Positions 1 through 13,756 of a DNA stretch of 13,756 nt are shown here, piece by piece; within the stretch, counting starts at the first letter, position 1; each line of letters starts with the position of its first letter. The position numbers and the translations under genes are program-made. Location: the UHGV virus genome UHGV-0099327; one strand, 5' to 3'. Under the pieces are notes generated by a model. It was not told the origin of the DNA, did not search any database, and saw only the letters and a program-made list of their open reading frames with translations. Origin of the DNA: a virus.

Positions 1-21
1 CTCCGGATGAATATGATGATC

Positions 22-321
22 TCATATCAGGAACTTGTTCGCACCTTCCCTAATTTCTTTTTCTTCGCTGATTGAACTGATATCAGTAAAGTCACCAGCG
101 GCAATAAAATTCTTACCTTGATATTGCAAGTCGTAATAAGCATCAGTTAACAACAGTTCTGCGCCGTTATGCATCTTAATCTGAACAAGATGAAACAACG
201 CGCCAACACTGAACAACTGACCAGTAGTCAGTTCAGTATAAGCAGTGCCGTTAAAATCGTTATACGCTTCGATGAAGTCGGGGTCTTTTCTCAGTCTGTT
301 AAATTGGTCTTTTACTGACAT
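22..321 (-). CDS. hypothetical protein (99 aa)
   Basis: ORF in the supplied track. ATG at 321..319 is preceded by an AGAGGTGG Shine-Dalgarno-like sequence. Its start overlaps the stop of the upstream 191-aa ORF (TAATG), suggesting translational coupling. No family recognised. Confidence 0.45.
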   Translation of the reverse strand: MSVKDQFNRLRKDPDFIEAYNDFNGTAYTELTTGQLFSVGALFHLVQIKMHNGAELLLTDAYYDLQYQGKNFIAAGDFTDISSISEEKEIREGANKFLI

Positions 322-1415: not shown

Positions 1416-1767
1416 AAATTTATATTATCTAATTTGAACAGCATCAAGTTGATGAATCGGACTAAGCAGATATGTAATTAACACCATCAGCTTAGTCTAC
1501 ATATAGCTTGTTATAATTTTTTACGACTCAACGAAGTCTTGTTAGGATAATGTAAACAAATCCGTTTTTTAGATGTTAGTAATATTAGCAATGTTCATCT
1601 TAGAATGTGATATCGAAGGAAACTCGAAAATGATAATAGCTTTACACTATTGAGAAAATTTGGTTGAGGCTTCAAAATAGAGCATTCATACGTGATCAAT
1701 AGCCAGACTAAGCAAGCAACAGCTAACCCCCGTAACGTACTGATTAAATTGATAATTGAAGGTGCAT

Positions 1768-2055
1768 ATGTTAAAAGTTACTGGTCTTGATAAGCTTCAG
1801 AAAGAACTCAAGGATGCAAAGCGTATACTGAGTGAGCTGGATGGCGAGCTAGGAGTCGTAAAGTTTAACCCTAACGACCCTGCTAGCATCGAGTCGGCAA
1901 TTCAAACAGTTAATCACATGATTGATGAACGCATTGGCGGATGTTCAACCAACTCCATAGTCGGCTCGCTTGCGCAGCAGATGAAGGAAACATACAGAGA
2001 AGGCATTCTTAAAAAAGCTGCCGAAGCCAGATTGACTTCAAGTGAGGATGAGTAA
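1768..2055 (+). CDS. hypothetical small protein (95 aa from ATG 1768), first gene of a two-gene operon with the TIR-like protein
   Basis: ORF with a GAAGGTG SD-like motif 3 nt before ATG 1768 (spacing short; the track starts at TTG 1756). Its stop overlaps the next gene's start (TAATG at 2053..2057). No family recognised. Confidence 0.5.
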   Translation: MLKVTGLDKLQKELKDAKRILSELDGELGVVKFNPNDPASIESAIQTVNHMIDERIGGCSTNSIVGSLAQQMKETYREGILKKAAEARLTSSEDE

Positions 2056-2951
2056 TGGCTCAAGATATTTTTTCTGAAATGAACAATGCTGTTCTGGATT
2101 TACAGGCTTCACAATACCAGACCTTTGAACGTCCACTCAAAAAGCTTGCTCAGCTTCTAAAACATTCCGATCTTGAATCATACAATGCAGACCTGACTGA
2201 AGGACTCAATCTTACAGAGTTTCTCGCAGAAAGTGAGAAGACTGGAGGAAGTATGGCTGGGAGTGCCCAGCTTGTCTGGCCAGATGATGCAAGAAAAACA
2301 CTAGGCCTTACATTACTTTTGATTTTTAAGTTAGCAGAAGATCCTAATTATGCAATCAACTTTGGACATCATTTTTTCTATTCCGGAAGTAAAGTTATAG
2401 CAGGCATTCATTCGATTACAGGACAACTTATCATTCCTTTCGTTAGAGATTACAAAAATTATGTTCAGTCTAAGGGAAGCACAGAAACTATGTTGAAGCC
2501 GCAGTTTTCGAACAAAGTTTTCATTGTTCATGGTCATGATGATGGCGCCCGTGAAACAGTCGCAAGGTTTCTTGAACGTATAGGTTTAGAAGCAATCATA
2601 TTACATGAGCAAGCTAATCAGGGACGAACTGTCATTGAGAAAGTTATAGCAAATAGTGATGTTGGATTTGCTGTTGTATTGCTAACACCAGATGATGAAG
2701 GTTGTGCTAAAGGAGGAATACCAGAACCAAGGGCAAGGCAGAATGTAATGCTAGAATTAGGATATTTTATCGGGCGTTTAGGCAGAGAGAAAGTATGTGC
2801 ACTAAAACGCGGCTCACTAGATATTCCAAGTGATTTTGCTGGGGTTGTTTGGGAAAATATGGATAGCAGTGGAGGCTGGAAGCAAGCACTCGCACGAGAA
2901 CTTGAAGCTGCTGGTCACAATATTGATTGGAATAAAGCAATGCGGAGTTGA
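2055..2951 (+). CDS. TIR-like domain protein (Cap12/PycTIR-type nucleotide-binding domain at C-terminus, uncharacterised N-terminal ~150 aa); candidate anti-phage effector
   Basis: 298-aa ORF with a GAGGA SD. The C-terminal half carries the motif series KVFIVHGHDDG (nt 2517..2546), AVVLLTPDDEG, RARQNVMLELGYFIGRLGREKVCAL and IPSDFAGVV. From memory this matches the bacterial TIR-like family found in CBASS Cap12 and Pycsar effectors. The N-terminal domain is not recognised. Confidence 0.6.
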   Translation: MAQDIFSEMNNAVLDLQASQYQTFERPLKKLAQLLKHSDLESYNADLTEGLNLTEFLAESEKTGGSMAGSAQLVWPDDARKTLGLTLLLIFKLAEDPNYAINFGHHFFYSGSKVIAGIHSITGQLIIPFVRDYKNYVQSKGSTETMLKPQFSNKVFIVHGHDDGARETVARFLERIGLEAIILHEQANQGRTVIEKVIANSDVGFAVVLLTPDDEGCAKGGIPEPRARQNVMLELGYFIGRLGREKVCALKRGSLDIPSDFAGVVWENMDSSGGWKQALARELEAAGHNIDWNKAMRS

Positions 2952-3002
2952 TTTTATATAGCTCTATTTTTAGCGATACTGGCGTTTCATCGACAATTAA
3001 AA

Positions 3003-3037
3003 ATTTGGCTGCTGATTAGCCTAAAACGCAGCCAAAT
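3003..3037. repeat. 10-bp inverted repeat (ATTTGGCTGC ... GCAGCCAAAT) with 15-nt spacer in the terS-upstream intergenic region; possible protein-binding site or cos/pac-associated element
   Basis: Arms at 3003..3012 and 3028..3037 are exact reverse complements. The repeat lies in the 337-bp non-coding stretch upstream of the Nu1-like gene, where lambda-like phages place cos. Confidence 0.35.
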
Positions 3038-3134
3038 ATAAATCATTAATGATATTGCTTAAATAAGTTTTAACGACTCATCTTCTGCCCCCCCTCTAAC
3101 AAAAAATAATAGTTACTCTGGGACTTCTGAAACA

Positions 3135-3163
3135 CCGAGATGTTTCGAGCGCTCGGCTTTTTT
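3135..3163 (+). terminator. putative intrinsic terminator downstream of the TIR-like operon
   Basis: CCGAG ... CTCGG stem (3135..3139 and 3152..3156) contains the palindrome CGAGCGCTCG and is followed by TTTTTT (3158..3163). Confidence 0.35.
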
Positions 3164-3288
3164 CTGCTGTGTGAAAATTCCAAATCAATTCAGTTCATCA
3201 TCGATAGACAGGACTGATTCCGGATGATTTTTCCGTTCAAGATAAATACAGTAATAAACCCTTGGGCCACTTGTGTAAGGAGAATAAA

Positions 3289-3810
3289 ATGGCACGTAAA
3301 ATTTACGTCAGTATGACTGATATGGCAAAACGTTATGGTTATACCCTTAACGCTATTAAATCATGGAGAGCAGAAGGACTTCCTTATTCAGATAATCCAG
3401 CAGGAATACCAGAAAACGAAGGCACTTTATGGATCGTTCAGAACAAAATTAATCCGATGCGCAATATGTCTGTTCGTGATGAATTCGAGAAAGAAAAACT
3501 TCGTGAACAGGTGGCGAAGGCTGACTTAGCAACTTATGCAGCGCAAGAAAAATCAGGTGAATTAATCCCTGTTGAGTTGGTGCAAGCTCAATTGAATCAG
3601 TTCTGTCAGTCTCTGAAAGATTCCATCAGGCTGATTCCGTCAAAACACGGTATCGAAATCATGGAGTCTGCTAATGATATCCAGGAGCTGAAAGAAAAAC
3701 TCAAAGAGATTTTCAACAGAACATTGAATGAACTTGGTGAGTCGTTCGAACAAGACTTCGAACACGTTGACAAACCAGAAGAGAAAGAAGATAGTGAAAT
3801 TGAACTTTAA
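3289..3810 (+). CDS. terS: terminase small subunit, lambda Nu1-like (N-terminal winged HTH)
   Basis: ATG at 3289 with an AAGGAG SD 6 nt upstream. The N-terminus (SMTDMAKRYGYTLNAIKSWRAEGLP) resembles the lambda Nu1 HTH (KKQLADIFGASIRTIQNWQEQGMP), followed by a similar EKEKLREQV acidic/coiled segment. An intrinsic terminator follows immediately. Confidence 0.6.
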   Translation: MARKIYVSMTDMAKRYGYTLNAIKSWRAEGLPYSDNPAGIPENEGTLWIVQNKINPMRNMSVRDEFEKEKLREQVAKADLATYAAQEKSGELIPVELVQAQLNQFCQSLKDSIRLIPSKHGIEIMESANDIQELKEKLKEIFNRTLNELGESFEQDFEHVDKPEEKEDSEIEL

Positions 3811-3916: not shown

Positions 3917-4129
3917 TCATCGTGTTGCTCCTTTAAAGATTTGTTTCTGACGATTAATGAACATTCTTTCCTGCTTGAAATAGCCTGCTTCAATTTCGAC
4001 TGACTCTGTTAGATGTTGCTTAGGGTATTTTTCGCGACTAGCGCAATGTACATTTTTTCGTTGTAACATAAAACTGATTTTCACATAATCGCGCTTGCAA
4101 ATTACACACTTGTAATCATGGCCTGTCAT
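3917..4129 (-). CDS. hypothetical small Cys/His-containing protein (70 aa) immediately downstream of the retron RT
   Basis: ATG at 4129..4127 is preceded by a strong AAAGGAG SD at 6-nt spacing. The product contains CVIC ... HC, a possible metal-binding motif. It sits 187 bp downstream of the RT gene on the same strand and is followed by the hairpin at 3809..3835. Confidence 0.5.
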   Translation of the reverse strand: MTGHDYKCVICKRDYVKISFMLQRKNVHCASREKYPKQHLTESVEIEAGYFKQERMFINRQKQIFKGATR

Positions 4130-4316
4130 ATATACTCCTTTGTAAAACTATATTTATAGCCTCCATAACATTACAAAAGAATGATATTTTTAATTTGAGG
4201 TGTCGTCCAAATATGATTATATTCCAAAGTGACATTAATGAATATTGTCCCGACTACGGAATAGGGATTAAAATAAACCGTAACCGGGAAATATATTTAT
4301 TATCCATTTTTAACCA

Positions 4317-6086
4317 TCATGGATAGTACAAATTTTTAAAGTGATTATTAATATCAACCATAGCATCAAGAATTGGTTTGAACAATGAAAAATCTATAGT
4401 CTGTCTATTTTCTCTGATAATATTGTTGGCAAACCTGTCTTTTCCAAAAGTAGTAGTGCTATCATGATTATTACTTTTATCAAAGGATTTACCGTTAATT
4501 GTCTTTGTCAGAACTTCATCTTTGAAAAAGTCTTCCATGCACGATTGTTTATCACCAGCCAATAGTGGAGTTAACAATACGTAGAGGTTATTCTCTAAAT
4601 GTAAAAATTTATGTTTTCTTACGTCCTCTGATTTTCTAGGCAGGTGAGAATATTCTTTGATTATATTATTAATAAAATCAGATGGCCCAGTGTCATTATC
4701 CAAAACAATTATTACTGGATTTTTAGGCGGTTGTCTTTCAAATTTCTTGCATTGTTCTCTATGCCTTCTAAAGAATCTTACATAGTCAGCAGCCCCACCG
4801 TAGAGGTCTAAAAAATATTCCTTTTTTGCGTTTGTTTTGAATAACGTAATATTTAAAATTCTATTCTTTGTTCTATCGTCAACTCTAACCAGAGCAGGAT
4901 AACTTAAATACAAAGAATCAATTGCACATTTCAAATAAATTGGATCTGTTTTACCTTCTGTCAAAACTGTAGGCTTTATATTCCCATAAAAATACTTATA
5001 ATGAAGAAAGTTACTGAATGCTGTCTCTCTTGAATTCAATTTGAGAGTAAAATTAATTCCAGTTTTCTTTAGCACATATTTTTCTGGGAGTGTATGTTTT
5101 TTAGCGTTAATGTTATTATACTTATCAAGCATATCAATATAAACGAAGCGGCCTTCAAGTTCATTTAGAGTACCTTTTCGCGGTTTTCCACTAATATCCA
5201 AAAGGGTAAAATCCCCTTCTTTATAAAGTGCATGCGCCATAGCTCTGGTTTTTTTAATATAATCTTTATTGACATTTATTTTTTTGTTTACGGTTAAACC
5301 TGTTACTTCCTGCCTTGATGTATGCCGCAATATTCTGGTCTTATTATTATTAATTTTAAATCCAGCTTTTTCAATTTCATTAACTAACAATGGTCCTAAC
5401 TCGTTAGAATTCTCATTTATAACAATTGAGTCAGGAAACTGATTTTTGTTAGTTGAGAATGTTATATCATCTGCATATCGACTATAACTGCATCCATTAG
5501 AAAGTGCCAACTTTGACAATCTAATATCTAAAATATTACATATAAGATTGCTTATTACAGGAGAGCAAGGACTTCCTTGCGGAAGTTTTCCATCATAGCA
5601 AGCTATCTGCGCAATTATAGTTGCTATTGATGGGTGCAAATTAAAATATTGATTCGCGATAAAATAACCACGGACCCTACCGAAATTAAATGTAGGGAAA
5701 AAATCCTCAAGATCAATATTTAAAACATTGGTTTTATTTCTATGTCTTTCTGCATTTGTTATTATTGTTTTATTTTTCTCAAATCCATGAGATAAGCTAG
5801 GGGTGATATTATTTGTTTTCCATATTTCGCTCTGACAAACATACAATAAATCTGATAAACGCCTTTGTATGTCTTTTAGTTTTTCAGTAGGCGCAAATAT
5901 CTCTCTGTCACCTCCAGACTTCTTTTTTATAATAAATCTTTCATATTGATGCTCAGGTCGTATTCTGTACAGGACATTAGTAAGAAAAGAAACTTTAATT
6001 TGAAGTAAGCGTGCAAACTCAAATTTGGTCTTGCATGACTTGAGTCTTTCTAAGTAGGAGGGAGTGAACATAATAGTAAATTCCAT
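4317..6086 (-). CDS. retron reverse transcriptase fused to a C-terminal TOPRIM (OLD-nuclease-like) domain, Ec67-type
   Basis: 589-aa ORF carrying RT motifs: KKSGGDREI (aa 55..63), NIDLEDFF (motif A, Asp125), QGSPCSPVISN, and YADD (aa 204..207, nt 5477..5466). The C-terminal region has TOPRIM-like TEGKTD and VLDNDTG motifs. Size and motif order match my recollection of the Ec67 RT (about 586 aa). A retron-like ncRNA lies directly upstream. Confidence 0.9.
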   Translation of the reverse strand: MEFTIMFTPSYLERLKSCKTKFEFARLLQIKVSFLTNVLYRIRPEHQYERFIIKKKSGGDREIFAPTEKLKDIQRRLSDLLYVCQSEIWKTNNITPSLSHGFEKNKTIITNAERHRNKTNVLNIDLEDFFPTFNFGRVRGYFIANQYFNLHPSIATIIAQIACYDGKLPQGSPCSPVISNLICNILDIRLSKLALSNGCSYSRYADDITFSTNKNQFPDSIVINENSNELGPLLVNEIEKAGFKINNNKTRILRHTSRQEVTGLTVNKKINVNKDYIKKTRAMAHALYKEGDFTLLDISGKPRKGTLNELEGRFVYIDMLDKYNNINAKKHTLPEKYVLKKTGINFTLKLNSRETAFSNFLHYKYFYGNIKPTVLTEGKTDPIYLKCAIDSLYLSYPALVRVDDRTKNRILNITLFKTNAKKEYFLDLYGGAADYVRFFRRHREQCKKFERQPPKNPVIIVLDNDTGPSDFINNIIKEYSHLPRKSEDVRKHKFLHLENNLYVLLTPLLAGDKQSCMEDFFKDEVLTKTINGKSFDKSNNHDSTTTFGKDRFANNIIRENRQTIDFSLFKPILDAMVDINNHFKNLYYP

Positions 6087-6102
6087 TATTAATTATGTTA
6101 TT

Positions 6103-6231
6103 GCACATGCAGGCACTCTTACGCATTTCAAAGTGACGCCCAAGAAGATCCGACGTCCGTCAGAGGCGAATACTGCCGACCTTTTAATCACTGATTGCGA
6201 TACCACAACCAACAAATCTACCTGCATGTGC
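6103..6231 (-). ncRNA. msr-msd: retron msr-msd non-coding RNA (template for msDNA), bounded by 11-bp inverted repeats a1/a2
   Basis: Exact inverted repeat GCACATGCAGG (6103..6113) and CCTGCATGTGC (6221..6231) flanks about 107 nt, immediately 5' of the RT start on the minus strand. This is the canonical a1-msr-msd-a2-RT layout. The 5' part of the minus-strand segment (AGATTTGTTGGTTGTGGTATCGCAATCAGTG) resembles my unverified recollection of the Ec67 msr. The only ORF here (6064..6249) is implausible. Exact ends are uncertain. Confidence 0.6.
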
Positions 6232-6516
6232 CTTGCTAATTTATCATAGTTAACAATCAAAACAAGCACTTTTGAAAATGGTTGTATCTTATTGATTAAC
6301 TAATCATGGTCAAAGCCGAACATTCCTCGTGAAGATTGTTAGAATTTGAGATCTTTACGAGCACTTAACAGACTGTCAGATTCAGTCATGGAGCAAGTTG
6401 AATGCAATGTTATCATGTATCACTTTTTCTTTTTCGTCGTTAAGATGGTTCATAAAACTTACCATTAAGTCGATTGATAACTAGTAATTACATCTGTAGG
6501 TTCTCTTGATGATTTG

Positions 6517-7257
6517 TCAGAGGGCATTTGAGCTAAATAAAGTTGATTCGACGAGTTCAATTGCTTCATCTTCGATAGTTGATTTGTCCATTGTTTTGGT
6601 CGGCTCAGAAATATCAATTTTCACAATTACAATCTCGTCATCAAAAGATAGTTTTTCACCCCTTCTTTCTTTACGTAAAACGCTGTTCTCTTTGCTGAGT
6701 TCAGCGTTTTTCCTTTCTAACTCTGCGACTCTTTTCATCAAATCTTCCATTTTGGAATTCACAACATCTAGTTTCTGCTCAGTCGGAAATTCAATACTTT
6801 CGATGATTTCAATAAATTCACCAGTATACATCTGAACAAACTGCTCGGTGTCTTTGATCTTCTGCATTCTTAGATCTGAACAGAAAGCTTTCCACGAGTT
6901 CTTTTTACCGTTAATTTCACAAGCAACGATAACAGCATTATCGGTTGTATAAGCAACGATTGCAGGCAGATTATTAACTTCGGTCGTACCGATTTCGAAG
7001 CTATGCATATTTTTTACAGTCACAGCATTTTCAATCTTCTGTAACATCTTAGCTCGAACATTACGATGAATATCTATAGCTTTAACAAGAGCTTTCAGGC
7101 TGTTTTTGTTATTGGTCATTCTATTAACTTTGATAATATTTCTGTTCAGGCTTGCTTTAACTGTTCTGTCTAGATTTTCGAAGACTGCAAATTTGAAATT
7201 CAATTTATTTGCCTTTATTGATTGGTTGAGTTCTGATATTACGTTTTTTGCAAGCAT
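6517..7257 (-). CDS. hypothetical protein (246 aa) with C-terminal coiled-coil-like segment
   Basis: Long ORF with phage-like codon usage. No SD before ATG 7257. The 5' 53 nt overlap the upstream HTH ORF in a different frame. C-terminal region (KMEDLMKRVAELERKNAELSKENSVLRKERR) is heptad-like. Family not recognised. Confidence 0.5.
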   Translation of the reverse strand: MLAKNVISELNQSIKANKLNFKFAVFENLDRTVKASLNRNIIKVNRMTNNKNSLKALVKAIDIHRNVRAKMLQKIENAVTVKNMHSFEIGTTEVNNLPAIVAYTTDNAVIVACEINGKKNSWKAFCSDLRMQKIKDTEQFVQMYTGEFIEIIESIEFPTEQKLDVVNSKMEDLMKRVAELERKNAELSKENSVLRKERRGEKLSFDDEIVIVKIDISEPTKTMDKSTIEDEAIELVESTLFSSNAL

Positions 7258-7363
7258 TATACATCGTTGCTTTATTCATTTGTTTAGATTCTGCAATTTG
7301 CTGAAATGTCTCACCAGAGTCTAAGCGAGATTCAATTTCGAATTTGTTAGGTATAAATTTCAT
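7205..7363 (-). CDS. small HTH-like protein (52 aa from Met at 7363); possibly the N-terminal part of a frameshifted larger gene
   Basis: ORF track entry 7205..7399. I prefer the internal ATG at 7363 because the terminator hairpin at 7394..7413 overlaps the longer version. The segment SGETFQQIAESKQMNKATMYNACKK looks like a helix-turn-helix. No convincing SD. Confidence 0.3.
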   Translation of the reverse strand: MKFIPNKFEIESRLDSGETFQQIAESKQMNKATMYNACKKRNIRTQPINKGK

Positions 7364-7393
7364 GGGGTTGCCTTTTTTATTGAATTGAAAAAT

Positions 7394-7419
7394 AAGCACT
7401 CCGAAGAGTGCTTTAAACT
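7394..7419 (-). terminator. intrinsic terminator on minus strand (8-bp stem, UUCG tetraloop, U-tract)
   Basis: The + strand AAGCACTC-CGAA-GAGTGCTT at 7394..7413 reads on the minus strand as AAGCACUC-UUCG-GAGUGCUU followed by AUUUUUCAAUUC. Confidence 0.45.
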
Positions 7420-7619
7420 TAAGGAATTTTTAAATGAACTAAGCTAATTGCTTATATCTTATTTTATGACGGATAAAGTCAGTAGTAAACAAACGAGAGA
7501 AAATAACGAGGAAGAAGAAACTCTCTGTGTTCATACTAATATTTATATAGTTCACCGAAAGTGTAAACAAAGTCCGAAAAATAATTTAGTGAAAAGCAGG
7601 TGCATTGATGCACATCAAA

Positions 7620-7643
7620 ACGCATCGATAACGCATCGATGCG
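7620..7643. repeat. tandem direct repeat ACGCATCGATA/ACGCATCGATG, the second copy lying within a perfect 12-bp palindrome CGCATCGATGCG; adjacent TGCAT-tg-ATGCA inverted repeat at 7601..7612
   Basis: Read directly from the sequence: two 11-nt copies at 7620..7630 and 7631..7641, and the palindrome at 7632..7643. Operator-like architecture in a stretch with no convincing ORF. Confidence 0.4.
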
Positions 7644-7762
7644 ACTCGGAGAAGTGCATGGACCCTAGAAAAAATCGCCCTATAAGAACAATTGGATAAA
7701 GATGAACTGGAAGGATATAGAAGCAGTACAAAACCTGGAAAACATAGCGAAGCGAGCAGATT

Positions 7763-7888
7763 GCGCGAAGCGCGGGCGAAGCCCTAATTGATAAACATTA
7801 GCGCGAAGCGCGACAGATAACACTATCGAACTTGATTACTAGCTACTGATTAGATGTTTCTAGATAAAGATTATTAGCGCTTCGCGCG
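7763..7888. repeat. cluster of GC-rich mini-hairpin repeats (GCGC-GAA-GCGC, GGGC-GAA-GCCC, GCGC-TTC-GCGC) embedded in AT-rich non-coding DNA
   Basis: GCGCGAAGCGCG at 7763..7774 and 7801..7812, GGGCGAAGCCC at 7774..7784, and the inverted version GCGCTTCGCGCG at 7877..7888. Copies two and three share the 5' flank ATTAGCGC. These are GCGAAGC-type hairpins, known to be unusually stable as DNA. Confidence 0.5.
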
Positions 7889-8350
7889 TTCGCTACGCTC
7901 ACAATATTATTTTTCAGATCTGGATAATAATGATTACTGGATAACTGCATTATACTGTTCGTCTGACAATCAATAAACATAACGATCGATAATTAATTGA
8001 AATAACGTTAATGAGTTCTCCTTCGCTATCGCTACGTCGAACGGGCAAGCCCTATCTTTGATGATAGTAATGATTGACTGCTACATCATCCCTCCTCGCT
8101 TCTCCCTGCTTCTACTGACCTAATGATACTCCAAGTCAATTCCCTGTTATCAAGTTCACCTGATGCTTCCTGCTTCGTTATCGACCTTATTGCTTTTGAC
8201 TCTACGCTTTCAGCTTCGCAGGAAGTACGCCCTGCTGTTTGCAGATCGTTCTAAAGAACTGAGTAATCAAGTTCTCAACTATTTGATTCCTTGCGCCCCA
8301 AAGATGCCTCCAGTATCTGTGGTTTACAATCTACTCATTTGAAATTCAAT

Positions 8351-8378
8351 AAAAAAGGGAGCACTAAGCTCCCTTTTG
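8351..8378. terminator. intrinsic terminator hairpin (GGGAGC-ACTAA-GCTCCC) flanked by A-run and T-run, probably bidirectional
   Basis: 6-bp GC-rich stem at 8357..8362 and 8368..8373, with AAAAAA upstream and TTTT downstream. It lies immediately 3' of the 59-aa minus-strand gene, whose stop is at 8379..8381. Confidence 0.55.
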
Positions 8379-8558
8379 TCATTTCAGATCAAGCACTAAT
8401 GCTTGTTCAAGTTTTTTCTCAAGCAGAGTGTTTAATCCACTTTCGAAAAATTCAATCGCTTGAACGTCTGAGTCTGTTTTTAAGCGAACAGCGGCATCGT
8501 CAACTGTTAACTCTTCGGTCTTAACATCACCGTTTTTATAAACCACATTAGCAATCAT
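8379..8558 (-). CDS. hypothetical small protein (59 aa), not in the supplied ORF track
   Basis: My own translation of the minus strand: AAAGGAGAAAGC-ATG (ATG at 8558..8556) opens a 59-codon frame, MIANVVYKNGDVKTEELTVDDAAVRLKTDSDVQAIEFFESGLNTLLEKKLEQALVLDLK, ending TGA at 8381..8379 and followed directly by the terminator. Strong SD with ideal spacing. Confidence 0.5.
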   Translation of the reverse strand: MIANVVYKNGDVKTEELTVDDAAVRLKTDSDVQAIEFFESGLNTLLEKKLEQALVLDLK

Positions 8559-8796
8559 GCTTTCTCCTTTGTTGCTAAAAAATAATAACCGAATGATATC
8601 ACTTGTTCAATTTTTCTTTCAATCAAATAAGTATCCGATGAATAGTCGGCTCTCTAAACTAGCAGGTATGAAATAGTTCCTTAATTCTGAACTTCCTCAC
8701 TTTGCTTCCTATTTAATATTGCAATTTTAAATCTAGTGTAATTAATTTAGCTACAAACTTGCATTTATTATACATTTAAAAAATCGCCTCCATTCG

Positions 8797-9231
8797 TTAG
8801 GCATTCTCAGTTTCACTCATTTCTCCTTTAGTGCTATTCACACAGCGAAGAAACTGATCCCTCTGATACGCGGCAGTTTTGTCTGACATCTGTTTTTTGA
8901 ATAACTCAAAATCCCCCTCTGTACGTTTAAAAATAATCATGCTAATCGCAGATGGTTTTTTATTAGCCGATTTGCTAGCAAGAAGTTTTTCGATGTTATC
9001 GAATCCGAAAGCCTGATTCACGATTCGTTGTGCTTCAACAGCATCGACAACTTCAACCGTATTTTCAGCTTTAACTTCTTCAACAACTGTATATTCCTCG
9101 ATGTTAGCTTTAACACGACGAACAACAGAACGAGGAACATCGTATTTTTCAGCAAGCTTACTCTCTGACATATCAGTACCAGCGTTTAATTCAGAAGCAA
9201 TTCGGTTTTCAACAGTCAGTTCAGTTTTCAT
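8797..9231 (-). CDS. hypothetical HTH-containing protein (144 aa from Met at 9231), divergent from terL
   Basis: The internal ATG at 9231..9229 is preceded by AGGAGA, whereas the track start at 9288 has no SD. The N-terminal segment SESKLAEKYDVPRSVVRRV looks like a helix-turn-helix. C-terminal part not recognised. Confidence 0.55.
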   Translation of the reverse strand: MKTELTVENRIASELNAGTDMSESKLAEKYDVPRSVVRRVKANIEEYTVVEEVKAENTVEVVDAVEAQRIVNQAFGFDNIEKLLASKSANKKPSAISMIIFKRTEGDFELFKKQMSDKTAAYQRDQFLRCVNSTKGEMSETENA

Positions 9232-9376
9232 TGTCGTTCTCCTGTGTTTTGTTGGAACAGACTTTAACAGGCGGATATCCAGGTGCAAGAACTCTTAGAA
9301 ATAATTTTATGGAGGTTTTCATAAATACAGACAGAGAAATGAAATCCATTTTGGGTTCATCCACTTAGGGCTGATT

Positions 9377-13390: not shown

Positions 13391-13756
13391 ATGCTAAAAC
13401 TAAAACGCGATTTCGAAGCCCAAGAAATTAAAATTACTGATGATAGTTATGAAATTGCGTTCTCAAGTGAAACTCCTGTTGAACGTCAAATTCTCGATAG
13501 TTACGGTCAACCAATAACAGTTAACGAAATTCTTTTGCATGACGGCCCTCAAAATGCTGACCTCGAGCGAATTAATAACGGTGCTGCTCTGTTGTTTAAC
13601 CATAATTTCGACAATCATCTAGGCGTTGTAATTCCTGGGTCTGTAAGAATCGATAATGACCGTAAAGGTCGCGCTGTTGTTAAATTCAGTAAAGTTGGTC
13701 AATTAGCTAAGGAAGGTGCGAATAAGCGGGGAAATTCTTCTCGGCTGACTCAGTCA
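13391..13756 (+). CDS. prohead protease (HK97-type), 5' partial; runs off the window end
   Basis: ATG at 13391 is preceded by AAGAGGAA. The N-terminal segment EIAFSSETPVERQILDSYGQPITVNEILLHDGP ... ALLFNHNFDNHLGVV ... DRKGRAVVKFSK resembles HK97-family prohead proteases. It is in the expected position after the portal gene. Confidence 0.55.
   Translation, partial: MLKLKRDFEAQEIKITDDSYEIAFSSETPVERQILDSYGQPITVNEILLHDGPQNADLERINNGAALLFNHNFDNHLGVVIPGSVRIDNDRKGRAVVKFSKVGQLAKEGANKRGNSSRLTQS

What the first reader, a model, noticed from the sequence alone, without database searches (positions are those of the whole stretch)
6517..9231. Block of uncharacterised minus-strand genes next to the retron
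None of the 246-aa protein, the 52-aa HTH ORF, the 59-aa protein and the 144-aa HTH protein matches a family I recognise. They sit between a retron and terL, separated by intrinsic terminators at 7394..7419 and 8351..8378, so each may be its own transcription unit. By position they could be regulators, a toxin-antitoxin-like pair or parts of a second exclusion function. This is the least explained coding stretch in the window.
Basis: inference. Interest (0 to 1): 0.5.

Follow-up and report, generated by a model that had tools for sequence, protein, structure and literature searches.

The report
Prophage control region with hairpin-rich origin
The "unexplained genes next to the retron" are the conserved control region of a little-known E. 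coli prophage family, and its most striking part is a very strongly conserved non-coding stretch full of tiny DNA hairpins that looks like a new kind of phage replication origin, with a protein of unknown fold that appears to bind repeats beside it.

Summary
The four minus-strand ORFs and both terminators are real. They are not retron accessories, a toxin-antitoxin pair or a recognisable defence system. They form the conserved core module of a rare prophage family that integrates next to ybiT through a large serine recombinase (E. coli, Citrobacter, Enterobacter, Kluyvera). The module is present whether or not a retron is there. In this window the Ec67-type retron lies between the body of the 246-aa-family gene and its zinc-ribbon tail.

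About 0.8 kb of non-coding DNA (window 8110-7390) is better conserved than the flanking proteins. It holds:
- three tandem promoter-like elements and a conserved attenuator-like terminator;
- 3-4 repeats phased at 11 bp, whose sequence tracks the N-domain clade of the 246-aa family and no other gene;
- two arrays of GCGNAGC-type DNA mini-hairpins that switch strand across an AT-rich, GATC-rich centre.

Best model (about 0.4): a replication origin plus an iteron-binding initiator, with HTH regulators. The rivals are a lysis-lysogeny switch, functional RNAs and a packaging site. All of this is computational inference.

The parts
8797..9231 (-). Gene for a 144-aa protein with an N-terminal GntR-type winged HTH. 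It is transcribed divergently from terL.
   Evidence: Pfam GntR E 1e-4, below the cutoff. There are 25 homologous clusters, many carrying PF00392, all from this prophage family. dN/dS is 0.12-0.29. It is present in all ybiT-type relatives.
9261..9288 (-). Promoter-like element TTGCAC-16-TAAAGT upstream of the GntR-like gene, inside a conserved 145-bp divergent intergenic region shared with terL.
   Evidence: Alignment A8 of six loci; both hexamers are invariant or nearly so. It is a consensus match only; function is not shown.
8379..8558 (-). Gene for a 59-aa acidic protein of unknown function.
   Evidence: ORF. Homologues at 56-65% identity in L002/L010, L011/L026 and L020/L021. No family hit. 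Other relatives carry different small genes in this slot.
8351..8378 (-). Intrinsic terminator ending the GntR-like/59-aa unit.
   Evidence: Fold of -17.7 kcal/mol, z -4.4. Conserved in L002.
8025..8110 (-). Left conserved blocks of the non-coding element: a purine-rich block (8110-8089), GGGCTTGCCC (8052-8043), CGTTCGACGTAGCG, and the mini-hairpin GCGATAGC (8032-8025).
   Evidence: Alignments A1, A3 and A7. The blocks persist in distant loci L020 and L025. Hairpin catalogue.
7949..7977 (-). P1: promoter-like TTTATT-17-TATAAT. In relatives GATC/TGATCA sites lie at about -33, -6 and +30.
   Evidence: TATAATGC is present in 13 of 14 loci. The -35 reads TTGTTTAC in L023 and L025. GATC positions. 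Consensus match only.
7877..7898 (-). Two mini-hairpins with G-N-A loops on the minus strand: GCGTAGC (7898-7892) and GCGCGAAGCGC (7887-7877).
   Evidence: Present in 14 of 14 loci. They are replaced by other G-N(N)-A hairpins in some loci (GGCGCAGCC; GTTTGC-GTAA-GCAAAC). The DNA search.
7812..7876 (.). AT-rich spacer of variable length between the two hairpin arrays. It carries TGATCA sites in relatives and is the candidate unwinding region.
   Evidence: Indel-rich, AT-rich columns in A3 and A7. GATC enrichment of 12/kb against 2.5/kb. The role is inferred.
7747..7811 (+). Right array of mini-hairpins whose G-N-A or G-N-N-A loops read on the plus strand: GCGCGAAGCGC (7801-7811), GGGCGAAGCCC (7774-7784), GCGCGAAGCGC (7763-7773) and GCGAAGC (7747-7753).
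   Evidence: the DNA search finds 4 plus-strand GCGAAGC here, with 1.2 expected in the whole window. In 14 loci, plus-sense hairpins number 50 right of the spacer against 7 left. Loop variants are GAA, GTA, GTAA, GTTA, GACA and GCCA, with stems kept.
7676..7704 (-). Conserved block CATCTTTATCCAATTGTTCTTATAGGGCG. Its CTTATA reads TATAAG on the plus strand (7681-7686) and is a possible -10 of a plus-strand promoter convergent with P1.
   Evidence: ATTGTTCTTATAGGG is invariant in 8 of 8 close loci. TTATCTTATA is kept in L020, L022 and L023. The promoter reading is inference.
7600..7642 (.). Three repeats of (C)ATCGATGC(G) phased at about 11 and 21 bp (iteron or operator type I).
   Evidence: The repeats are replaced by other 11-bp-phased repeats in other clades: CCAGTTACG, CCAGTCACA, GTCTC-type and GGCGCCTT-type. 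The repeat type tracks the N-domain clade of the 246-aa family. The hairpin-plus-T-run that the scan tool flagged here is not conserved as a hairpin in other clades.
7461..7570 (-). Tandem promoter-like elements P2 (TTTACA 7567-7562, TAAATA 7545-7540) and P3 (TTTACT 7489-7484, TAAAAT 7466-7461). Both carry the extended motif TTTGTTTAC.
   Evidence: Scan. TTTGTTTAC and ATAAA(A/T)TA are invariant in the alignment of 8 loci. They are also present in L020 and L022-L026.
7388..7413 (-). Conserved intrinsic terminator 25-30 nt upstream of the 52-aa ORF start. It would act as an attenuator of the HTH52/246 operon, or as the 3' end of a roughly 70-nt RNA from P3.
   Evidence: Fold of -12 kcal/mol, z -4.2. 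Compensatory stem changes and tetraloop swaps in relatives. The weak Rfam TarB hit (E 0.03, far below gathering) reflects only this terminator.
7205..7363 (-). Gene for a 52-aa resolvase- or transposase-type HTH protein (HTH52).
   Evidence: dN/dS 0.03-0.07. Family members hit HTH_7, HTH_28 and HTH_38 weakly and a PHROG DNA-invertase HTH at E 0.014. Four sequence types are shuffled independently of the repeat type.
6517..7203 (-). Gene of the '246-aa family' (likely start TTG 7203). It encodes a beta-rich N-domain of about 135 aa, a coiled coil and the conserved GE-LSF-EE motif. Here the C-terminal part is truncated or altered.
   Evidence: 10 clusters in 5.8e9 proteins and 15 representatives in 1.84e9. 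Alignments A2 and A6. AF2 pLDDT 79. No fold match. Only coiled-coil Pfam hits.
3917..4129 (-). Remnant of the FmdB-type zinc-ribbon tail (or separate zinc-ribbon gene) of the same operon, now separated from it by the retron.
   Evidence: tblastn against the P0010 tail gives 43% identity over 70 aa, E 1e-13. The second CxxC is lost (CPEC becomes CASR). In relatives the ribbon is fused (P0002, P0006, P0010) or is a separate 68-69-aa gene just downstream.

Best explanation
The block is the conserved control module of a temperate phage family that integrates next to ybiT by a large serine recombinase. The retron is a later insertion into its last operon.

I propose that the module is the phage's replication origin together with its initiator and regulators.

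Shown from sequence comparison:
- A non-coding element of about 0.8 kb is conserved more strongly than the flanking proteins.
- The element contains 3-4 repeats phased at 11 bp, whose sequence changes together with the N-terminal domain of the downstream 246-aa-family protein.
- It contains two arrays of GCGNAGC/GCGNNAGC mini-hairpin motifs. Those on the left read on the minus strand and those on the right on the plus strand, either side of an AT-rich, GATC-rich spacer.
- It contains promoter-like elements P1, P2 and P3, followed by a conserved terminator placed directly before the HTH52/246 operon.

Inferred:
- The coiled-coil dimeric 246-family protein binds the phased repeats through its N-domain and opens, or licenses, the neighbouring AT-rich DNA.
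- The mini-hairpins then form on the exposed single strands, resist SSB, and act as single-strand initiation signals for a conserved host enzyme (primase or primosome). Synthesis primed on the two arrays would run outward in both directions.
- The conserved C-terminal motifs and zinc ribbon of the protein recruit host factors.
- Expression of the initiator operon is held down by the terminator and by the HTH52 and GntR-like regulators.
- GATC/TGATCA sites couple firing, or P1 activity, to Dam methylation.
For: Core status:
- The same gene order recurs in E. coli, Kluyvera, Enterobacter and Citrobacter prophages with or without a retron. The sub-module homing endonuclease / non-coding DNA / HTH52 / 246-family also appears in a second phage backbone.
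- Retron insertion: homology to relatives runs over 7194-6610 and resumes at 4129-3916.

Constraint on the non-coding DNA:
- dS between loci is about 1 and third-codon-position identity is 0.5-0.7, yet blocks of 10-40 nt are invariant.
- Locus L020 keeps these blocks although its homing endonuclease is 45-50%, its HTH52 42-47% and its 246-family protein 27-30% identical.

Repeat and protein co-variation:
- All nine loci with N-domain identity of 44% or more have the CGATGC-type repeats.
- L022 and L023 (65% identical to each other) have CCAGTCACA. L020 has the related CCAGTTACG. L024 and L026 each have their own repeat.
- HTH52 types a-d and the GntR-like type do not track the repeats.

Hairpins:
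- 110 G-N(N)-A mini-hairpins occur in 14 loci, against 28 +/- 5 in shuffles.
- The strand split is 50/3 and 7/50 across the spacer.
- Stem-preserving replacements occur: GTGC-GAA-GCAC, GTTTGC-GTAA-GCAAAC, GGC-GCA-GCC and TGGC-GAA-GCCA.
- All six GCGAAGC in the 13.7-kb window lie within 7747-8219.

Other points:
- Literature: such mini-hairpins sit at the primase-dependent origins of phages G4, St-1 and alpha3, in RSF1010 ssiA, and in N4 hairpin promoters, and they bind SSB poorly (PMC13037366).
- GATC occurs at 12/kb here against 2.5/kb elsewhere.
- No replication protein is annotated or detectable by Pfam elsewhere in the roughly 34-kb prophage.
Against: - There is no experimental datum.
- No conserved DnaA box was found, and no helicase loader is identified.
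- The module is absent from the plasmid collection, so it is not a known autonomous replicon.
- Repressor-operator pairs in phage immunity regions would give the same protein-site co-variation.
- Promoter-like elements on both strands mean the hairpins could act in RNA. Pairing statistics cannot separate the strands for palindromic GC stems.
- The co-variation rests on five repeat types only.
- 'No other replication gene' is absence of evidence, since many prophage proteins remain unannotated.
Confidence: 0.4

Rival explanations
1. Lysis-lysogeny (immunity) switch. The 246-family protein would be the specificity-determining repressor or activator that binds the phased repeats between divergent promoters. 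HTH52 and the GntR-like protein would be co-regulators. P1-P3, the convergent plus-strand promoter and the attenuator terminator would form the decision circuit. The hairpins would be incidental, or would be sites for regulators.
For: - A temperate phage needs an immunity region and none is annotated elsewhere.
- Highly variable protein-site pairs embedded in conserved flanks are typical of immunity regions.
- Three promoter-like elements and a conserved terminator lie directly upstream of an operon that begins with an HTH gene.
- The invariant TTTGTTTAC in the -35 regions fits the GT-N-AC type of GntR operator. That fit is my own knowledge and was not tested.
Against: - The repeats lie about 30-80 bp upstream of the -35 of P2 and do not overlap any core promoter.
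- This model does not explain a strand-switching array of G-N(N)-A mini-hairpins with stem-preserving replacements.
- It does not explain why the non-coding blocks are conserved across clades whose regulators have diverged to 27-47% identity.
Confidence: 0.25
2. Functional RNAs. P1, and a convergent plus-strand promoter, would produce structured or antisense RNAs whose small hairpins act in RNA. Possible roles are cis-acting antitermination of the downstream terminator in the style of put or nut sites, P4/P1-type RNA immunity, or priming RNA. P3 plus the terminator would give an sRNA of about 70 nt.
For: - Promoter-like elements are conserved and correctly placed.
- The terminator in front of HTH52 shows RNA-type compensatory changes and UUCG or GNRA loops on the minus strand.
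- The two hairpins just downstream of P1 have their G-N-A loops in the sense of the P1 transcript.
- A host RNA polymerase partner would also explain the extreme conservation (inference).
Against: - Rfam gives no family, only a sub-threshold TarB hit caused by the terminator.
- The consensus fold gives no preference for either strand.
- The minus-sense hairpins at about -94 and -75 lie upstream of P1 and would not be in its transcript.
- The special stability of C-GNA-G triloops with two or three pairs is a property of DNA (PMC13037366).
- No complementary target for the putative sRNA was found in the prophage.
Confidence: 0.15
3. DNA-packaging recognition site (cos or pac). The element lies between terS and terL, and its TGATCA hexamers flanking a central region recall the Dam-dependent pac site of phage P1.
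For: - Its position between the terminase genes.
- 4-6 (T/C)GATCA sites within about 300 bp in relatives.
- The resemblance to P1 pac comes from my own knowledge and was not tested.
Against: - The terminase is of the lambda Nu1/gpA type, and its cos site is expected next to terS. A separate non-coding gap of about 300 bp lies upstream of terS (2952-3261).
- In the second backbone (L020, L024) the module sits at a prophage end, not next to terL.
- The repeats track the 246-family protein, not terS.
- The window copy has only two GATC sites.
Confidence: 0.07
4. An accessory defence, exclusion or toxin-antitoxin function associated with the retron.
For: - It lies next to a retron, with a TIR-domain gene 4 kb away.
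- It contains small genes of unknown function.
Against: - No PADLOC hit apart from a chance-level E 0.012 for the 59-aa protein.
- It is present in all relatives irrespective of the retron, in a fixed order.
- The retron interrupts it.
- Type I-C retrons are single-gene systems.
Confidence: 0.03

Closest known systems
[quoted passage not shown]
   Same: - Phased direct repeats lie next to AT-rich DNA.
- GC-rich hairpin signals sit on opposite strands, oriented so that priming on each would give continuous synthesis outward.
- ssiA contains a C-GAA-G mini-hairpin (PMC13037366).
   Different: - No RepA-, RepB'- or RepC-like proteins are present.
- There are arrays of 3-4 mini-hairpins per side rather than one 40-nt hairpin per strand.
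- The candidate repeat-binding protein has an unrecognised fold.
- The element is in an integrated phage.
- No similarity to any plasmid record was found.
Complementary-strand origins of phages G4, St-1 and alpha3 (host DnaG primase recognises hairpins on SSB-coated single-stranded DNA)
   Same: - The same GCGNNAGC/GCGNAGC mini-hairpin motifs occur (G4 GCGAAAGC; St-1 and alpha3 GCGTTAGC).
- A host-enzyme partner would explain why the motifs are more conserved than the phage's own proteins.
   Different: - Those are single-stranded DNA phages with one origin on one strand. Here a double-stranded temperate phage has two opposed arrays plus iteron-like repeats.
- Priming has not been tested.
Iteron-type origins with an adjacent initiator gene (lambda O/ori, P1 RepA/oriR, pSC101)
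   Same: - Phased repeats co-vary with the N-terminal domain of the neighbouring protein.
- GATC clusters and AT-rich DNA are present.
- The initiator gene lies beside its sites and is probably kept at low expression.
   Different: - No sequence or fold similarity to O, RepA or winged-helix Rep proteins.
- No conserved DnaA boxes.
- Only 3-4 repeats.
Hairpin promoters of the phage N4 virion RNA polymerase
   Same: They are DNA hairpins with 5-7-bp stems and GGA or GAA triloops, extruded from duplex DNA.
   Different: No virion RNA polymerase exists in this 34-kb prophage. The stems here are shorter (2-6 bp) and occur in arrays.
Immunity regions of lambdoid and P2/186-type phages
   Same: - Specificity pairs of DNA-binding protein and repeated sites lie between oppositely oriented promoters.
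- The modules are shuffled mosaically between phages.
   Different: - No CI-, Cro-, Cox- or Apl-like proteins are present.
- The sites do not overlap the core promoters.
- Hairpin arrays are not a feature of those switches.

Membership tests
Retron accessory/effector gene (part of the Ec67-type retron) | Co-occurs with the retron RT and ncRNA across genomes | tested here: not met
   The block is present in at least 10 related loci that lack a retron. The RT matches single-gene type I-C models (RT-Toprim_I-C, E 7e-216).
Known anti-phage defence or toxin-antitoxin system | Protein matches to defence or TA profile models | tested here: not met
   PADLOC gives no hit for the 246-, 52- and 144-aa proteins and only E 0.012 for the 59-aa protein. 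No TA family appears in Pfam or NCBIfam.
GntR family transcription regulators (144-aa protein) | N-terminal winged HTH matching PF00392 at the gathering threshold | tested here: inconclusive
   The window protein scores 22.2 bits against a cutoff of 27. Many homologues carry a precomputed PF00392 hit. The best PDB match is a GntR regulator at E 0.02.
GntR family transcription regulators (144-aa protein) | C-terminal effector-binding or oligomerisation domain of a known subfamily (FadR, HutC, MocR, YtrA) | tested here: not met
   No Pfam or NCBIfam match covers residues 60-144. At 144 aa the protein is too short for the FadR, HutC or MocR domains. That length argument is my own knowledge.
Resolvase/transposase-type HTH proteins (52-aa protein) | Match to HTH_7, HTH_28 or HTH_38 models | tested here: inconclusive
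   The window protein gives no hit at E 1 or less. 3-4 of 10 family members hit HTH_7 (best E 1e-4), HTH_28 or HTH_38. A PHROG DNA-invertase HTH matches at E 0.014.
Iteron-binding replication initiators (Rep/RepA/lambda O) | Sequence or fold homology to a known initiator family | tested here: not met
Iteron-binding replication initiators (Rep/RepA/lambda O) | Cognate phased repeats next to the gene that co-vary with the protein | tested here: met
   Five repeat types match five N-domain lineages across 14 loci and are independent of the HTH52 and GntR-like types.
Iteron-binding replication initiators (Rep/RepA/lambda O) | Supports origin-dependent replication | not testable with these tools
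   Requires a plasmid-replication or in vitro assay.
Single-strand initiation signals (G4-type or RSF1010 ssi-type) | Stable hairpins with GNA or GNNA mini-hairpin cores on the strand to be primed | tested here: met
   110 motifs against 28 +/- 5 in shuffles. They are strand-specific by side (50/3 and 7/50), and stems are kept through replacements. Motif definition from PMC13037366.
Single-strand initiation signals (G4-type or RSF1010 ssi-type) | Primase- or PriA-dependent priming on the single-stranded form | not testable with these tools
   Requires an M13 delta-ori complementation assay or an in vitro priming assay.
Curated RNA families (Rfam 15) | Covariance-model match at the gathering score | tested here: not met
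   The only hit is TarB at 29.9 bits against a gathering score of 80, and it covers the terminator.

The most novel reading that the evidence does not exclude
A previously undescribed origin architecture in a double-stranded-DNA temperate phage. A dimeric repeat-binding protein of unrecognised fold would open an AT-rich, GATC-rich centre. Two opposed arrays of SSB-resistant GCGNAGC-type DNA mini-hairpins would then recruit the host primase or primosome, starting outward leading-strand synthesis on both strands. That would be RSF1010/G4-like priming logic operating without any phage-encoded primase or helicase.
Probability: 0.25. Interest if true: 0.75.

Novelty: new variant of a known kind. 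Interest (0 to 1): 0.6.

Why it matters
- **Replication model:** If the model is right, this small phage family would be a natural, genetically compact system for studying how DNA mini-hairpins direct priming on duplex genomes. So far that question has been tied mainly to single-stranded phages and one plasmid.
- **Protein family:** The model would assign a function to an orphan protein family with no recognisable fold.
- **Retron boundaries:** Independently of the mechanism, the result fixes the limits of the retron cassette at about 4130-6600. It shows the neighbouring genes should not be counted as retron-associated in guilt-by-association screens for defence genes.
- **Insertion hot spot:** It identifies a hot spot for insertions (retron, TIR gene, homing endonucleases) around a highly conserved cis element.

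Tried and rejected
- **Link to the historical Ec67 element.** From memory I suspected this was the 34-kb Ec67 element. This is not supported: Ec67 and Ec86 lie in a 186-related prophage between cos and a terminator (Dodd & Egan 1996, as cited in PMC6868368).
- **Rfam.** A search of the whole window at E 1 or less gave only a terminator-driven TarB hit. No tRNA or tmRNA was found.
- **Phage and plasmid nucleotide searches.** blastn of the block against phage records and of the non-coding element against plasmids gave no match.
- **Protein searches with full-length P0010.** tblastn against plasmids and phages matched only the zinc-ribbon tail, for example the small FmdB-like genes next to dexA in T4-like phages.
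- **Closest isolated phage.** By TerL this is DCP80 at 53% identity, and it gave no useful context.
- **RNA folding.** Consensus folding of the non-coding element on both strands gave similar energies and no clear covariation, because the stems are invariant GC palindromes. A column-based pair table on A7 was mostly invariant and was confounded by misalignment of replaced hairpins, so I relied on a direct hairpin scan.
- **The hairpin at 7643-7621.** It is not a conserved terminator: other clades have direct repeats there that do not fold.
- **Who binds the phased repeats.** HTH52 was rejected because L011, L022 and L024 share one HTH52 type but have three repeat types. The GntR-like protein was rejected because L022 and L016 share their left arm (homing endonuclease 98.5% identical) but differ in repeats.
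- **Coding potential of the non-coding DNA.** It was rejected: stops occur in all frames and indels are not multiples of three.
- **Public collection scans.** The viral scan returned only the same contigs, and the genome scan returned chance hits in GC-rich MAGs. The genome contigs protein scan found no relative.
- **sRNA target.** A search for a trans target of the putative P3 sRNA found nothing beyond AT-rich chance matches.
- **DnaA boxes.** No conserved box was found.

Full report
**What the window is**

The window is 99.9% identical over the block to the chromosome of E. coli MS 115-1. It belongs to a prophage of about 34 kb lying between ybiT and ldtB. The gene order is:
- large serine recombinase;
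- a 245-aa protein;
- two tail genes on the opposite strand;
- lysozyme;
- a small gene plus a TIR-domain gene;
- terS (PHROG 57, E 4e-21);
- the retron;
- the block under study;
- terL (lambda gpA type), portal, protease-capsid fusion and tail genes.

The RT is an Ec67-family RT-Toprim, a type I-C single-gene retron (NCBIfam 5e-213; PADLOC 7e-216). It is described as self-sufficient in PMC12916289. I had recalled that the historical Ec67 element might be this prophage. That is wrong: Ec67 and Ec86 sit in a 186-related prophage (PMC6868368).

**Checking the observation**

Their homologues show purifying selection:

| ORF | dN/dS or identity |
|---|---|
| 52 aa | 0.03-0.07 |
| 246 aa | 0.19-0.33 |
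| 144 aa | 0.12-0.29 |
| 59 aa | 63% identical, dS saturated |

Both terminators fold far better than shuffled controls. The one at 7413-7394 keeps its stem in relatives through paired A-U to G-C changes, while its loop switches among UUCG, GCAA and CGCA.

Curated libraries give no confident family:
- The 144-aa protein has a sub-threshold GntR winged HTH, which many homologues match properly.
- The 52-aa family has weak matches to resolvase or transposase HTH models.
- The 246-aa protein has only coiled-coil matches.

Its true start is probably TTG 7203, because homologues begin MKFSVFDNL or MNF....

**The block does not belong to the retron**

A diverged prophage at the same site in E. coli L3Cip3 lacks the retron but keeps the block. 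So do prophages in Kluyvera, Enterobacter, Citrobacter and other E. coli. Written along the window's minus strand, the shared order runs as follows:
- terL is transcribed away from the block.
- The GntR-like gene comes next, followed by one to three small variable genes.
- Often a NUMOD3 homing endonuclease lies on the other strand.
- About 0.8-1.1 kb with no conserved ORF follows.
- The 49-56-aa HTH gene and then the 246-family gene follow.
- The 246-family gene is convergent with terS.

In relatives the 246-family protein is 200-331 aa long. It ends in an FmdB-type zinc ribbon or is followed by a separate zinc-ribbon gene.

In the window, homology to relatives stops at about 6610 and resumes at 4129-3916. 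The resumed stretch is a 70-aa ORF 43% identical to the zinc-ribbon tail (E 1e-13) that has lost its second CxxC. The retron cassette therefore sits inside this operon. The window copy of the operon is damaged, and the prophage is decaying: IS5 sequence lies at the window ends, and IS3 interrupts terL in MS 115-1.

Between the two terminators lies about 0.95 kb without a conserved ORF. Stops occur in all frames and indels are not multiples of three. Yet this is the best-conserved DNA of the region.
- Among loci whose synonymous sites are saturated (dS about 1; third-position identity 0.5-0.7), blocks of 10-40 nt are invariant.
- The same blocks persist in a second phage backbone (L020, L024). 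There the homing endonuclease is 45-50%, the HTH gene 42-47% and the 246-family protein 27-30% identical to those of the first group.
- Co-conversion by the endonuclease alone cannot explain this, because the endonuclease itself has diverged.

**Anatomy of the non-coding element**

Read on the minus strand in window coordinates, the element contains:
1. Left conserved blocks (8110-8025).
2. P1, TTTATT-17-TATAAT (7977-7949). TATAATGC is kept in 13 of 14 loci.
3. Two mini-hairpins, GCGTAGC and GCGCGAAGCGC (7898-7877).
4. An AT-rich, indel-rich spacer (7876-7812).
5. Four hairpins that read GCGCGAAGCGC, GGGCGAAGCCC, GCGCGAAGCGC and GCGAAGC on the plus strand (7811-7747).
6. The invariant block ...TTATCCAATTGTTCTTATAGGG (7704-7676).
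7. Three repeats of ATCGATGC spaced 11 and about 21 bp apart (7642-7600).
8. Two tandem promoter-like elements that share TTTGTTTAC-N16/17-TAAA(T/A)(A/T) (7570-7461).
9. The conserved terminator (7413-7388), only 25-30 nt before the HTH52 start codon. The HTH52/246 operon can therefore be expressed only by read-through.

**Hairpin arrays**

I scanned 14 loci for short stems closing G-N-A or G-N-N-A loops.
- The scan found 110 such hairpins, against 28 +/- 5 in shuffled sequences.
- On the minus-sense strand, 50 lie to the left of the spacer and 3 to the right.
- On the plus-sense strand, 7 lie left and 50 right.
- Loops vary (GAA, GTA, GCA, GTAA, GATA, GTTA, GACA, GCCA), but the first G and the last A are kept.
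- Whole hairpins are sometimes replaced by different ones at the same place: GCGC-GAA-GCGC by GTTTGC-GTAA-GCAAAC, GC-GAA-GC by GTGC-GAA-GCAC, and GGGC-GAA-GCCC by TGGC-GAA-GCCA.

This is selection for a strand-specific hairpin, not for a duplex sequence. In the window all six GCGAAGC heptamers fall within 7747-8219, where 1.2 are expected in the whole window.

GCGNAGC and GCGNNAGC are the 'extraordinarily stable DNA mini-hairpins'. A 2026 review reports them at the primase-dependent origins of G4, St-1 and alpha3, in RSF1010 ssiA and in N4 hairpin promoters, and notes poor SSB binding (PMC13037366).

GATC is five-fold enriched around P1 and the spacer (12/kb against 2.5/kb). It occurs mostly as TGATCA, at conserved positions of about -33, -6 and +30 from P1. 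No conserved DnaA box was found.

**Who binds the phased repeats**

The repeats just upstream of P2 come in five types:

| Type | Repeat | Loci |
|---|---|---|
| I / I' | CGATGC | nine loci |
| II | CCAGTTACG | L020 |
| III | CCAGTCACA | L022, L023 (L023 also keeps two type I copies) |
| IV | GTCTC-type | L024 |
| V | GGCGCCTT-type | L026 |

All are phased at roughly one helical turn. The type follows the N-domain clade of the 246-family protein:
- at least 44% identity within type I;
- 65% between the two type III proteins;
- 45-47% between types II and III, whose repeats are similar;
- about 30% or less otherwise.

It does not follow HTH52. HTH52 type b occurs with repeat types I, II and III, and type c with I', III and IV. 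It does not follow the GntR-like arm either, because L022 and L016 share that arm but differ in repeats. The 246-family protein is therefore the best candidate for the repeat-binding protein.

**Interpretation**

The broad conclusion is well supported: this is core phage control DNA, the retron is an insertion into it, and it is not a defence or toxin-antitoxin function.

For the mechanism I favour a replication origin with its initiator (about 0.4), for these reasons:
- Phased repeats co-vary with the adjacent protein.
- There is an AT-rich, GATC-rich centre.
- Opposed arrays of mini-hairpins are oriented so that priming on each would proceed outward.
- A conserved host partner would explain why the cis element out-conserves the phage proteins.
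- No other replication function is detectable in the prophage.

The steps 'protein binds repeats', 'hairpins form on single strands' and 'host primase uses them' are inferences. None is shown.

The main rival is a lysis-lysogeny switch (0.25). It explains the co-variation, the promoters and the attenuator, but not the hairpin arrays or the cross-clade conservation. Functional RNAs (0.15) cannot be excluded. The promoter-like elements are well placed and the terminator is clearly an RNA feature, but two of the four left hairpins lie upstream of P1, and the special stability of these loops belongs to DNA. A packaging site (0.07) and a defence role (0.03) are unlikely. These readings are not mutually exclusive, since an early region can hold both the origin and the switch.

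**Roles of the other genes**

These roles are inferred and held with low confidence:
- The GntR-like protein, with its own conserved TTGCAC-16-TAAAGT promoter facing terL, is a candidate repressor of the late operon or of the TTTGTTTAC promoters.
- HTH52 is highly constrained and exchanged as a cassette whose boundary is the terminator. It is a candidate co-regulator or a recombination directionality factor.
- The 59-aa protein is unknown.

**Verdict**

The finding as written is ordinary in one sense, because these are phage core genes and not retron partners. It nevertheless uncovers an unusual cis element and an orphan protein family that deserve experiments.

Noticed in passing
window 1756..2951 (+): A 99-aa gene is followed by a 298-aa protein with a CAP12/Pycsar-type TIR domain (Pfam E 5e-38; PADLOC candidate system PDC-S35, E 1e-70). 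The same pair (YuaX-like plus TIR) occupies the slot between lysozyme and terS in some relatives (L018, L019, L026) and is absent from others. It is probably a second defence moron.
   Followed up: partly
window 3917..4129 (-) and 4130..6600: A degenerate FmdB zinc-ribbon ORF lies downstream of the retron RT. It marks the retron cassette as an insertion of about 2.4 kb into the 246-family/zinc-ribbon operon. The historical Ec67 and Ec86 retrons also sit beside packaging genes, but in a different (186-like) prophage.
   Followed up: yes
window 1..53 and 13703..13756: Both ends of the window match IS5 or IS-flanking sequence found in many phage records, so the prophage copy in this genome appears to be interrupted by IS elements. 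In MS 115-1, terL is itself split by an IS3-family element.
   Followed up: partly
L002 13779-14393; L016 7448-8056; L018 9168-9614; L016 8931-9599; L020 6302-6898: Free-standing homing-endonuclease genes (NUMOD3-containing; GIY-YIG), or another 222-aa gene, are inserted at the left edge of the conserved non-coding element or between its hairpin part and the P2/P3 part. The window has none (tblastn negative). The element is a recurrent target or refuge for selfish genes.
   Followed up: partly
L023 about 3600-3700: One relative carries both type III repeats (CCCAGTCACA, three copies) and two type I repeats (TATCGATGCG) in tandem. This looks like a recombination intermediate between specificity types.
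   Followed up: no
window 2952..3261: A non-coding gap of about 310 bp lies upstream of the Nu1-like terS gene. It is the expected place for cos in a lambda-type packaging system. It was not analysed.
   Followed up: no
window 7910..7898 (minus strand: AATATTGTGAGCG): A conserved block contains TTGTGAGCG, identical to nine bases of the left half of the lac operator O1. This is probably coincidence.
   Followed up: no
L001 12509..13246 (245-aa gene next to the serine recombinase): A conserved 245-aa protein with no Pfam match is always adjacent to the integrase. Its size and position resemble the recombination directionality factors of large serine integrases such as phiC31 gp3 and Bxb1 gp47. 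That comparison is from my own knowledge and was not tested.
   Followed up: no
phage records, e.g. NC_025425.1 5147-5335: The zinc-ribbon tail of the 246-family protein is 62% identical to a small 'FmdB-like' gene next to dexA in many T4-like coliphages (850 records).
   Followed up: no
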